From: Escherichia coli
GTDB lineage: Bacteria; Pseudomonadota; Gammaproteobacteria; Enterobacterales; Enterobacteriaceae
DNA: 64,000 nt
Strand: one strand, 5' to 3'
Assembly (NCBI RefSeq): GCF_016026235.1
Contig: NZ_CP065614.1
Shown here: in pieces, positions 58,401 to 61,400 of the stretch
How positions within the stretch are numbered: the stretch's first letter is position 1
Layout of the letters: each line of letters opens with the position of its first letter
Program-made: the position numbers

Positions 58401-61400
58401 TCTGCCACACCCCGATTTGCAGCCGCCAGGCTGCCGTGGTTCAGCCTGAGTCACGTCTTCTCCGGAAACAACCTCCGGGACATCCGGTTCGAAGAGGCTG
58501 GCCATCTGACGACCTTCTGCTTCCCTTGCGGCAAGTACGGCACTCAGACGGTTCTCCATTTCCGGGTTGATGTCACGCGGAATAAACTCCGGAGCGACCT
58601 TCGGTCGTGCCTGATATTTCAGTGAGAGTTTTACTGCCGGATACGGTCCGGGCAGGGTGACATAACAGGTCAGATCCGGCAGAGACTGAATGTCGGAATA
58701 ACTGACCAGCGTCTGGCGCTCCATATCCTTACCGGTCGATACCCCGTCACGCACCGGATCAGCACCGTAGGAATACTGCTCGCTGGCTTTCAGGTGCTCT
58801 TTCTCACCAATCTCACCGGCAGCGAACTCTGCAATCTTATGGCTGGGAGAACGGAAAAAGGCACGGGTGTTCATGACGTCAAACAACGTGGCAGCCGCTT
58901 TCTCACCGTAGATATCTTCCAGCTGGGCATAGGACTGGATACCAAACACATAACAGCCACCGAACTTACGGGCTTCCGGCAGGATCTCCACCAGGTCCGG
59001 CAGTTTGTGTAACGTGGGTAACTCGTCACAGAAAAACCACACACGACGGTTACGGTTTTCTCCCATTGCCAGCAGACCACGAATGGCAATGGACAGCCAC
59101 ATGGAGATCACAGGCTTCAGGGAGGCATGGGTGTCGGCGTTCGACGAAATAAACAGCCAGCCGTTTTTCTGATCTTCCCGGACACCCCGCATCCAGTCAC
59201 GTATGGTGAAGGGTTCACCGTTATGCTCAATCCCCTGCAGGTAACGGATGGCTTTCACGTAGTTGGTCAGCACAGCACGGATGGAAATCGCCGTTTTCTC
59301 AATTTTCTCTTCCACCAGGTTGGCCGCCGGTGAATTACGCAGGAAGGTACGCAGTTTTTCAATTTTGATGGAAAGCAGTGTGTCCACCAGTTTGCTGTAG
59401 CTGCGGTTGGGGTCATTACGCATCAGATACGCCGCTTCCGCAAAAATGGTACGTCCTGACCCCTGCCAGAACGGGTCCTCTTTTGTACCCATCGGGATCA
59501 GAGTATTTGCGGTATTATCAAAATCCGGCTGTGTCAGGCACTCCTTCCACAAATCCCATGCGGCACAGCGGGCATCCAGCGGATTCAGGATTTTATCGAT
59601 GGAGGGATCATAGTAACTTTTAACAAATTCCCCTGAACGGTCATAAATCACCACCATATCTCCACGCTGACGGGCGTAGTTGGCCAGACGACGGATAACT
59701 TCCGACTTACCGGCCCCGACCGTGCCGTGCAGACAGAAGTTCTGGATTTCGGAATCCCGGATAATCGGCAGGTCGCCAATCCGGATATCGGAGTCCCTGC
59801 CGTCTTTTTTCAGCATCCGGGCAACGTCTTTCGGATTGTCTGTCAGCTGACGACCACCTGTGACTTCATTTTCGCTCTGTTGTTTACCCTGACGCCCCAG
59901 AATCCAGGAGACAACAAAGAAGGTGATCAGGCAAATAACCAGTGCCACAACTGCGGCCAGAACGAATGCGGACCATAGCTGCTCTCCGCACCAGATCATA
60001 TATTTATCATGCAGCACCTGAGCAGCGTTCATCCGGAAGGTTTTGCCGTAATACTGAATCTCATATACCGGCTGAGACTTGATTAAATCCCGCATGCCTT
60101 CCAGCGTGGTGCACCACCAGTAAATACAGCCATTCACAAACGTCTGCCAGCTTATTTTTACCCATAAAACCAGACCAACGAGTATCCAGAAAAAAATAAA
60201 CAGGCAGTAAAGCATAATATTGGCGATCTGGCTGAACATGCGGATACGCATGGACGCAATCTGACCGCCCTGGGTCATATCCTTTGCGTTAAAACTCATG
60301 ATGATATTCCGAAGAAAGAAAGTCAATCGGACTGATTATTAATGATGAAAAGATTAATAACCGTTAAATTCCGGCTTCGCCGGCAACACTTCACGGTCGC
60401 ACAAAGAATTTGCACAACCGCTCAGTGTTTTCATATTTATTTCGGAAACGCCGGGGAGAAATAAAATTTATTTTATTTCTTTCCGGGGTTGGACAACGAG
60501 CAAAGCGAGGCGTCAGTCAGGAGGCCAGCAGGGCTGGCCCGGATAATTTTCTTGACGTCATTAAAGTTAATAAATAAAGATCAGCTATTTATCGTCATAA
60601 GCATCCATATTTGATCAACACCTGATGAATCCTGATCAACAGCAACTGGCTCAATTGAAAGTGACCATATTTCTTTACCATTGACAATACAGGAAAAGTC
60701 ATCAAAGAAATAACCTTTATTTACATACTCATCCAGTTTTTCTGTTTGAAATCTATACGCAATCTTTTGTTTTTCAAAACTCTGATAAGAATCCCTGAAT
60801 GCTTCATATGCTCCGAAATGAGCATACAATCCCATATCACGAAAGGCTTTAGCAACTTTATAGCCGGATTCAATAAAGGTATCAGAGGTGAATTTCTTAA
60901 TTCGTCTCTGCCCTCCACTTATAGCACATAATTTTTCCACATTCACTGATGGTGCCGCTACTTGTTTATCAACAAACAGAGCCGGAGTATATAGGAAATA
61001 CGTATCAGAACCGCCAGTACGGGTGATATAATTATAATTCTCATTATGAATGTTATACATTATCTGGTCGGACAAAAATTCTCTTATATGTTTATTCTTA
61101 TATTTATATAAAGTTCCTTCAGATACTTGTGTACTTATGCATCCCTGAATGAGGAAACAAATTAATAACACTATGCATTTTCTGATTAACACGACTGCCC
61201 CCTTTATTCCATAATAGGGATTATATATGAGACTGGTACAGTCTTTATCCAGTCTCATCCTAAATTACAATATATTAGCAATTGATTTGGCCAGCTGGTC
61301 TTCGAGAACCGGTTTCGCCTCTTCAAATTTCAGGTTAACCTTGTTCGCATTTGAGACCACACGGGTCTGGTATTTATGCTGGTTACCTGTTTCAGTACTG

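What the first reader, a model, noticed from the sequence alone, without database searches (positions are those of the whole stretch)
60581..61258. Low-GC lipoprotein gene sitting between traT and traD in an otherwise F-like transfer operon
In F-like plasmids traT is followed directly by traD. Here a roughly 0.7-kb AT-rich segment (visibly lower GC than the flanking tra genes) encodes a probable lipoprotein of about 200 aa (signal peptide ending in a lipobox-like LIQGC) with no resemblance to any Tra protein I know. It sits beside the surface-exclusion genes, so a cargo function at the cell envelope (exclusion, phage or serum resistance) is plausible. This is my best candidate for undescribed content in the tra region.
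Basis: partly seen in the sequence, partly recalled or inferred. Interest (0 to 1): 0.65.

Follow-up and report, generated by a model that had tools for sequence, protein, structure and literature searches.

The report
Unnamed lipoprotein gene beside traT
A real, conserved but unnamed lipoprotein gene sits between traT and traD in about 2% of F-like plasmids, recurs at other spots in the same part of related transfer operons, and is a candidate extra barrier against incoming plasmids whose function has never been tested.

Summary
On the minus strand, 60581-61192 encodes a 203-aa protein with a GTG start and a strong ribosome-binding site. Its signal peptide ends in the lipobox LIQGC. GC is 0.33-0.37, against 0.52-0.55 in traT and traD.

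About 3,990 F-like plasmids share the traD-proximal intergenic DNA. Only 76 carry the whole segment, and 85 encode the protein.

The gene is under purifying selection (dN/dS 0.10-0.23). The lipobox is conserved down to 21% identity. A confident AlphaFold model (pLDDT 90) matches no known fold. It hits nothing in Pfam, NCBIfam, PHROGs, PADLOC or PDB, and every database calls it "hypothetical".

It is not a one-off insertion:
- Homologues of 49-81% identity sit at different positions in the traG-traD interval of Salmonella, Providencia and other F-type operons.
- In one plasmid the gene exactly replaces traS.
- Its synonymous divergence tracks that of traT.

Most likely it is an outer-membrane lipoprotein co-transcribed with traT. 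It probably acts as an optional extra exclusion or envelope-barrier factor. That function is inferred, with about 0.35 confidence.

It is not related to TraT, TraS or the IncA/C exclusion lipoprotein Sfx. Interest is moderate.

The parts
60581..61192 (-). Coding sequence of the unnamed lipoprotein ('X'), 203 aa plus stop, GTG start
   Evidence: ORF. The same start is annotated by PGAP in the identical plasmid NZ_CP065612.1. dN/dS is 0.10-0.23. The family alignment is A5. The AlphaFold2 model has pLDDT 90.
61139..61192 (-). Signal peptide (residues 1-17) and lipobox cysteine Cys18 (LIQG|C). The +2 to +4 residues are I-S-T, with no Asp, so the default Lol route to the outer membrane is expected.
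   Evidence: Pattern check on all family members. The lipobox Cys is nearly invariant in A5.
61198..61204 (-). Shine-Dalgarno-like AAGGGGG, 5 nt upstream of the GTG start
   Evidence: Read directly from the sequence.
60527..61278 (.). Low-GC variable segment (about 750 bp) that replaces about 45 bp of the standard traT-traD intergenic region. The right-hand junction lies within the last five codons of traT, which differ only synonymously from standard F-like traT.
   Evidence: Megablast coverage. Junction alignments. Composition.
60523..60539 (-). Hairpin GGCCAGC-nnn-GCTGGCC after the X stop codon, at the position of the hairpin that follows traT in standard F-like plasmids. It has no U tract.
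   Evidence: The stem sequence differs between lineages, but a hairpin is kept in front of the shared CCTCCTGACTGACGCC block.
61265..61996 (-). traT (surface exclusion lipoprotein), ending 72 nt upstream of X. No terminator-like site was found between them.
   Evidence: NCBIfam NF010291, 537 bits. Terminator scan.
62028..62531 (-). traS-type entry exclusion gene, a multi-TM protein with the C-terminal motif NPATGLxM..D..GN..G
   Evidence: PGAP names it 'surface exclusion protein' in the identical plasmid. Alignment with other post-traG proteins. 2,520 plasmids carry relatives.
58439..60299 (-). traD, with its 3' end cut off by an IS91-family element
   Evidence: NCBIfam NF010254 covers profile positions 1-625 of 735. 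Breakpoint found by blastn against NZ_CP065612.1.

Best explanation
X is a real gene for a small secreted lipoprotein of about 185 aa when mature. The protein has an alpha/beta fold with one conserved cysteine pair.

**Shown.** The gene is real and under constraint, and the lipobox is conserved.

**Inferred, in order.**
1. Signal peptidase II cleaves the precursor and Cys18 is lipidated.
2. Because there is no Asp at +2, the Lol pathway takes the protein to the outer membrane.
3. It is transcribed together with traT. It lies 72 nt downstream, with no terminator between them, and the hairpin that normally closes traT now follows X.
4. It is an optional third gene of the traS-traT exclusion module of F-type plasmids.
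5. It acts in the envelope of the plasmid-carrying cell as a barrier against incoming conjugation. This would be surface or entry exclusion with its own specificity.

In this it would resemble the unrelated lipoproteins TraT (IncF), Sfx (IncA/C) and TrbK/Eex (IncP/N/W).
For: **Real gene.** dN/dS is 0.10-0.23 over eight tra-borne homologues. Residues Q77, L88, C89, G94, C168 and W176 are invariant across 18 sequences down to 21% identity. The AlphaFold2 model has pLDDT 90 and pTM 0.81.

**Lipoprotein.** Every full-length member has the lipobox and none has Asp at +2. A conserved Cys89/Cys168 pair fits an oxidising compartment.

**Link to the exclusion region.** The gene occurs in five different arrangements:
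- traT-X-traD: window, pO86A1 and pCFSAN004180G.
- traG-(reversed YbjQ-like ORF, my reading of its sequence)-traT-X-traD with no traS: Salmonella pSE49-2444 type.
- traG-traS-X-traT-traD: another Salmonella plasmid.
- traG-X-traT: P. alcalifaciens and contig CADGRJ010000080.
- traG-traS-like-X-traD: P. rettgeri.

**Replacement of traS.** In CADGRJ010000080, X starts 6 bp after the traG stop. The last ~19 bases of the pSE11-2-type traS gene survive just after the X stop. X has therefore replaced traS in its own slot.

**Age.** X synonymous divergence tracks that of traT (0.36 vs 0.34; 1.02 vs 1.14; 1.50 vs 1.66). This points to long co-residence.

**Location.** All 94 E. coli copies are on plasmids and none is chromosomal.

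**Co-transcription.** No terminator-like site lies between traT and X on the coding strand. The hairpin follows X.

**Precedent.** Sfx is a lipoprotein, unrelated to TraT, that is necessary and sufficient for surface exclusion in IncC plasmids (PMC11493245).
Against: - No experiment and no homology ties X to exclusion.
- Most carriers, including this window, also have intact traS and traT, so an extra exclusion factor looks redundant.
- About 98% of F-like plasmids with this backbone lack X. Its TraS type is found in 2,520 plasmids, against 85 for X.
- More distant homologues (21-35% identity) lie outside tra operons. They sit near a fimbrial operon, beside hns, beside ccdB, or among hypothetical genes on Photobacterium plasmids. 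One lies beside traM in the opposite orientation.
- The plasmids in which X stands without traS may simply have decaying tra regions.
- dS values above 1 are saturated, so the co-divergence argument rests mainly on the win-L003 pair.
- Outer-membrane sorting and co-transcription are rule-based inferences.
Confidence: 0.35

Rival explanations
1. X is envelope-protective cargo unrelated to conjugation. It could be a lipoprotein that masks a surface receptor or otherwise blocks phage, colicin or complement attack, as Cor, Llp, Bor/Iss do and as TraT does in its serum-resistance role. Alternatively it could be an orphan immunity protein against a toxin that acts in the periplasm. In this view it sits in the traS/traT region only because genes there are expressed constitutively in plasmid-carrying cells.
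For: - It is a free-standing single gene in every context, with no conserved partner.
- Distant homologues lie outside tra operons.
- Its low GC is typical of horizontally acquired accessory genes.
- Carriers listed include stool and cattle isolates, Shigella dysenteriae and E. albertii.
- TraT itself has a second, protective role and a chromosomal ancestry (PMC11733297).
Against: - No hit to any phage protein family (PHROGs).
- No hit to any defence-system model (PADLOC).
- No hit to Bor, Cor or immunity families in Pfam or NCBIfam.
- No toxin or effector gene was seen next to any homologue.
- Repeated placement inside F-type tra operons at five positions, and replacement of traS, is more than a neutral landing site would predict.
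Confidence: 0.3
2. X is a donor-side accessory of the F-type transfer apparatus. It could be a periplasmic or outer-membrane lipoprotein that aids pilus or mating-pair function in particular hosts, rather than a recipient-side barrier.
For: - It lies within the tra operon, in the same orientation, in all Enterobacteriaceae and Providencia cases.
- One homologue lies next to traM.
- F-type systems already use lipoproteins such as TraV.
Against: - It is absent from about 98% of closely related, transfer-proficient F-like plasmids.
- It is always next to the non-essential exclusion genes rather than the assembly genes.
- It persists in the window although traD is disrupted by IS91.
- The homologue by traM is transcribed against the operon.
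Confidence: 0.1
3. X is a decaying or meaningless ORF in AT-rich filler DNA.
For: - Many records annotate only a 159-aa form starting at Met45.
- Some cluster members are truncated or frameshifted.
Against: - dN/dS is 0.10-0.23.
- Full-length intact ORFs occur across Escherichia, Salmonella, Klebsiella, Providencia and Photobacterium.
- The lipobox is conserved.
- The structure prediction is confident.
- The 159-aa form is an annotation artefact, because the 44 residues in front of it are conserved.
Confidence: 0.02

Closest known systems
TraT (PF05818; F-type surface exclusion and complement-resistance lipoprotein)
   Same: - A plasmid-borne lipoprotein with a lipobox signal, encoded in the same traG-traD interval.
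- Adjacent to traT and probably co-transcribed with it.
- The family also has members outside tra operons, as TraT does.
   Different: - No sequence similarity: there is no PF05818 or NF010291 hit.
- A different predicted fold: an alpha/beta domain with a long helical hairpin, against TraT's beta-sandwich plus helical barrel decamer.
- Far rarer: 85 plasmids.
Sfx of IncA/IncC plasmids (Rivard et al. 2024, PMC11493245)
   Same: - A lipoprotein 'unrelated to the exclusion factors described to date' that lies next to a mating-pair gene.
- Sfx is constitutively expressed and is sufficient for surface exclusion.
- Sfx homologues also occur among genes of unknown function on Photobacterium damselae plasmids.

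Sfx is the best functional precedent.
   Different: - Not homologous: hhalign of family profile A5 against pRA1 Sfx gives probability 28.7%, aligned over the signal peptide only.
- Sfx is 286 aa and sits beside traN. X is 203 aa and sits beside traT, traS or traG.
TraS (F-type entry exclusion protein; PF10624 and unclassified alleles)
   Same: - It occupies the same slot (immediately after traG) in two F-type operons and physically replaces traS in one.
- Low GC, like traS.
   Different: - TraS proteins are multi-pass inner-membrane proteins. Here they carry a C-terminal NPATGL...GGN motif.
- X has a single cleavable lipoprotein signal and a soluble domain.
- There is no sequence similarity.
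Small entry-exclusion lipoproteins of other conjugation systems (TrbK of IncP, Eex of IncN/IncW). This comparison rests on my own knowledge.
   Same: Lipoproteins encoded within the transfer region that act in the recipient envelope.
   Different: - They are much smaller.
- No Pfam or NCBIfam model for any such family matched X, so there is no detectable relationship.
- No direct pairwise comparison was made, because their sequences were not fetched.
Phage superinfection-exclusion or serum-resistance lipoproteins (Cor, Llp, Bor/Iss). This comparison rests on my own knowledge.
   Same: Single-gene outer-membrane lipoproteins carried by mobile elements that protect the host envelope.
   Different: - No PHROGs or Pfam hit.
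- X is two to three times larger.
- X was never seen on a prophage here.

Membership tests
Bacterial lipoproteins (signal peptidase II substrates) | N-terminal signal peptide with a positively charged n-region, a hydrophobic core and a lipobox [LVI][ASTVIQ][GAS]C | tested here: met
   MLIRKCIVLLICFLIQGC matches the PS00013 pattern as recalled. So do all 17 full-length family members tested.
Bacterial lipoproteins (signal peptidase II substrates) | Actual lipid modification and membrane localisation | not testable with these tools
   This needs globomycin or palmitate labelling and cell fractionation. Outer-membrane sorting is inferred from the absence of Asp at +2.
TraT family | Match to PF05818 / NCBIfam NF010291 | tested here: not met
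   No hit for X. The neighbouring traT scores 537 bits.
TraS entry exclusion proteins | Polytopic inner-membrane protein encoded directly after traG (PF10624 or allelic equivalents) | tested here: not met
   No PF10624 hit. The model is a soluble alpha/beta domain behind a cleavable signal. Only the position is shared, in L005 and L008.
Sfx surface exclusion lipoproteins (IncA/C) | Sequence homology to Sfx of pVCR94/pRA1 | tested here: not met
   hhalign probability 28.7%, with 42 aligned columns confined to the signal peptide.
Exclusion factors in general (functional class) | Expression in the recipient lowers transfer from a cognate donor | not testable with these tools
   Only context evidence is available.
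Insertion sequence / transposon cargo | Terminal inverted repeats, target-site duplication or an adjacent transposase | tested here: not met
   There are no flanking repeats beyond a 13-nt 85% match that is probably chance. The junction lies inside traT codons. The nearby IS91 element interrupts traD and is absent from an otherwise identical plasmid.
Known anti-phage defence systems / phage proteins | Match to a PADLOC or PHROGs model | tested here: not met
   The best E-values are 0.02-0.3 on short stretches.

The most novel reading that the evidence does not exclude
X is a previously unrecognised third exclusion factor of F-type plasmids. It would be a lipoprotein with a new fold that blocks incoming transfer with its own specificity and can stand in for TraS. 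In this reading, the plasmids that carry X but no traS (the Salmonella pSE49-2444 type, P. alcalifaciens p2939_90_3 and contig CADGRJ010000080) rely on it for self-exclusion.
Probability: 0.3. Interest if true: 0.7.

Novelty: new variant of a known kind. Interest (0 to 1): 0.45.

Why it matters
Exclusion decides which plasmids can enter a cell that already carries one. It therefore shapes how resistance and virulence plasmids spread among E. coli, Shigella and Salmonella.

For IncF plasmids the textbook list is TraS plus TraT. The molecular target of TraT is still unknown.

If X is an exclusion or barrier factor, the consequences would be:
- The IncF list would gain a third member, a lipoprotein with an unassigned fold that recurs in the same gene neighbourhood.
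- This would repeat for IncF what Sfx recently showed for IncA/C.
- The field would gain a compact new handle on donor-recipient recognition.

If X is instead a phage, colicin or serum barrier, it is still an unannotated envelope determinant, carried by about 1.7% of completely sequenced E. coli.

Either way there is a practical point. Many records call only a 159-aa fragment, which hides the lipoprotein signal.

Tried and rejected
**Family and homology searches**
- Pfam, NCBIfam, PHROGs, PADLOC and PDB-sequence searches on X and on distant members found nothing.
- The word-indexed protein search found 7 clusters. The exhaustive profile search over 1.84 billion representatives found 14. The family is tiny.

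**Fold searches**
- Foldseek against AFDB50 returned only the family itself, plus weak HlyD/RND-adaptor hairpin hits with TM about 0.25.
- I reject any fold assignment.

**Specific hypotheses rejected**
- Sfx homology, tested on pRA1 Sfx: rejected.
- Mobile-element origin: no ends or duplications.
- Linkage to one TraS allele: rejected, because that allele is about 30 times more common than X.
- The neighbour of the P0010 homologue being TraM: not supported.

**Searches that found nothing useful**
- Rfam scan of 58000-64000: nothing.
- Five literature searches and targeted reading of four papers on F-like tra regions, TraT, TraS and Sfx found no mention of this gene.
- pVCR94 (KF551948) is not in the plasmid collection.
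With the narrow alignment it found one locus among 100,044 species representatives.
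Full report
**What is at the coordinates**

The window's right end carries the distal part of an F-type transfer operon on the minus strand. The order is traG (running off the window end), a traS-type gene (62028-62531), traT (61265-61996), the ORF in question, and traD. The same order is annotated in the plasmid NZ_CP065612.1, which is 100% identical over 60330-61264.

The ORF runs 60581-61258 from its first ATG, giving 225 aa. The likelier start is GTG at 61192 (203 aa), for four reasons:
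- AAGGGGG lies five bases upstream.
- PGAP uses this start.
- The 81% homologue uses it.
- In the 90% homologue the region upstream of it contains stop codons.

GC is 0.33-0.37 across the segment and 0.51-0.55 in traT and traD.

**How unusual the arrangement is**

Megablast of 60330-61264 against 72,556 plasmids hits 3,992 records. Nearly all match only the ~197 bases next to traD, and only 76 carry at least 80% of the query. In ordinary F-like plasmids traT ends 25 bp beyond that shared block.

Alignments place the junctions at about 60526/60527 and inside the last five traT codons. Those codons keep the peptide SIANIL but differ at synonymous sites from the standard F-like plasmid L002.

The segment has no terminal repeats, target duplication or transposase. 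A short GC-rich hairpin follows whichever gene comes last before the shared block: traT in standard plasmids, X here.

By tblastn the protein is encoded in 85 plasmids: Escherichia 72, Salmonella 4, Shigella 3, Klebsiella 2, Providencia 2 and Photobacterium 2. It is present in 93 of 5,426 complete E. coli genomes, always on plasmids. Among 100,044 species-representative genomes only one locus was found.

**It is a real, constrained gene for a lipoprotein**

- Pairwise Nei-Gojobori dN/dS among eight tra-borne homologues is 0.10-0.23.
- The family is tiny. There are 7 clusters by word search and 14 representatives at 50% identity among 1.84 billion proteins.
- The family is coherent. Across 18 sequences down to 21% identity, Q77, L88, C89, G94, C168 and W176 are invariant. 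The lipobox Cys, Y156, F162, P182, D188 and S190 are nearly so.
- Every full-length member matches the classical lipobox pattern and none has Asp at +2. By the E. coli Lol rule (established knowledge) this predicts outer-membrane sorting.
- The conserved cysteine pair fits a periplasmic or surface protein.
- With the 18-sequence alignment, AlphaFold2 gives pLDDT 90 and pTM 0.81. The model has short N-terminal helices, a helix packed on a small sheet, a long helical hairpin (residues 108-159) and a three-stranded C-terminal meander.

**No known relatives**

- Pfam, NCBIfam, PHROGs, PADLOC and PDB sequences give nothing significant for X or its distant relatives.
- Foldseek against AFDB50 returns only the family itself.
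- The weak DcrB/SciW-like hits came from an earlier low-confidence model and did not survive.
- All source databases call the protein "hypothetical", "Uncharacterised protein" or "Lipoprotein".
- Many records annotate a 159-aa form starting at Met45. This removes the conserved signal peptide.

**Context elsewhere is the most informative evidence**

Homologues of 49-90% identity all lie in the traG-traD interval of F-type operons, but at different places.

| Arrangement | Where seen |
|---|---|
| traS-traT-X-traD | Window, pO86A1, pCFSAN004180G |
| traG-(reversed YbjQ-like ORF)-traT-X-traD, no traS | Salmonella pSE49-2444 type |
| traG-traS-X-traT-traD, intact signal peptide | Another Salmonella plasmid |
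| traG-X-traT...traD, no ORF of 50 aa or more on the tra strand between traG and X | P. alcalifaciens |
| traG-traS-like-X-traD, no traT | P. rettgeri |
| traG-X-traT, X starting 6 bp after the traG stop | Contig CADGRJ010000080 |

Calling the reversed ORF in the second arrangement YbjQ-like is my reading of its sequence; NCBIfam gave no hit for it.

That last backbone is 93% identical to pSE11-2. There a 216-aa multi-TM traS-type gene fills the same slot. The last ~19 bases of that traS gene (CTGGGATGACCGTTGGTAA) survive immediately after the X stop. X has therefore replaced traS in place.

Synonymous divergence of X between lineages is close to that of the adjacent traT.

| Pair | dS of X | dS of traT |
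|---|---|---|
| window vs L003 | 0.36 | 0.34 |
| window vs L007 | 1.02 | 1.14 |
| window vs L005 | 1.50 | 1.66 |

X is therefore an old resident that is often lost, not a recent arrival. Values above 1 are saturated, so this rests chiefly on the first pair.

X is not tied to one TraS allele. The window's TraS type occurs in 2,520 plasmids.

More distant family members (21-35% identity) are less tied to transfer genes:
- One lies between a LuxR-type regulator and traM of an F-type operon, in the opposite orientation.
- One lies beside ccdB.
- The Photobacterium copies sit among hypothetical genes on large MOBH plasmids.
- Three lie near a fimbrial operon, hns, or regulators.

**How it most likely works**

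Shown: a constrained gene with a conserved lipoprotein signal, repeatedly located in the exclusion segment of F-type operons, and once substituting for traS.

Inferred:
- Lipidation and outer-membrane sorting.
- Co-transcription with traT. The gap is 72 nt, the scan found no terminator-like site between them, and the hairpin is displaced to after X.
- Hence expression in plasmid-carrying cells alongside the exclusion genes.

My best explanation is that X is an optional extra exclusion or barrier lipoprotein acting in the recipient-role envelope (confidence 0.35).

The closest functional precedent is Sfx of IncA/C plasmids. Sfx is a lipoprotein unrelated to earlier exclusion factors, is sufficient for surface exclusion, and is specific for the donor's TraN (PMC11493245). 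I fetched Sfx from pRA1 and found no homology to X beyond the signal peptide. So X may work like Sfx or TraT but belongs to neither family.

Rival explanations:
- Envelope protection unrelated to conjugation, meaning a phage, colicin or serum barrier or an orphan immunity protein (0.3). The non-tra relatives favour this. The absence of any phage, defence or toxin association weakens it.
- A donor-side accessory role (0.1). This is unlikely because about 98% of sister plasmids lack X.
- A meaningless ORF. This is excluded by the constraint analysis.

**Novelty and verdict**

The gene is present in hundreds of public records but is unnamed. It was not mentioned in the papers I could search.

It is an undescribed protein family with no fold match. 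It belongs to a familiar functional class: single lipoprotein genes of mobile elements that act at the envelope. I therefore call it a new variant of a known kind.

Interest is moderate at 0.45. It is a good, cheaply testable candidate for a third IncF exclusion-region function, but nothing here demonstrates that function.

Noticed in passing
window 56729-58438 (transposase ORF 56901-58109, minus strand): An IS91-family element (NF033538, 309 bits) is inserted in the 3' part of traD. It is not present in the otherwise 99.9-100% identical plasmid NZ_CP065612.1. The traD product loses its C-terminal ~100 residues, so this copy of the transfer system is probably not proficient.
   Followed up: partly
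window 62028-62531 (minus strand); L022 2426-3076; L010 6436-6978: The otherwise very divergent post-traG (TraS-type) proteins of E. coli, pSE11-2 and a Providencia rettgeri plasmid share a C-terminal motif, NP(A/S)(T/S)GLxM...D..GN..G, behind their transmembrane segments. NCBIfam gave no match for the window protein, and no Pfam scan was run on any of the three.
   Followed up: partly
L003 3217-3696, L016 4133-4612, and many cluster members: Public annotation often starts this gene at Met45, giving a 159-aa product. This deletes the conserved signal peptide and lipobox. The 203-aa form with the GTG start is the conserved one.
   Followed up: yes
L005 8655-8690 compared with L022 3050-3076: A ~19-base remnant of the 3' end of a pSE11-2-type traS gene survives right after the stop codon of the X homologue. 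This shows a cassette-like replacement of traS.
   Followed up: yes
L007 6740-7108 (minus strand); L023 4740-5051: In the Salmonella pSE49-2444-type plasmids the traS slot between traG and traT holds a reversed 103-122-aa ORF with no NCBIfam match. From its sequence it looks like a YbjQ/UPF0145-type protein. No traS gene is present.
   Followed up: no
NZ_CP086258.1 (Providencia rettgeri plasmid), outside L010: tblastn reports a second place matching X in this plasmid. Its location and context were not examined.
   Followed up: no
NZ_CP050866.1 219808-219903: This plasmid has a 100% identical X region, yet it matches only the last 32 residues of the window's TraS-type protein. Its traS therefore appears largely deleted or interrupted.
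   Followed up: no
window 60523-60535 and 61289-61301: A 13-nt imperfect direct repeat (GGCCAGCAGGGCT / GGCCAGCTGGTCT) lies near both edges of the variable segment. It is probably chance, since the observed junctions do not coincide with it.
   Followed up: partly
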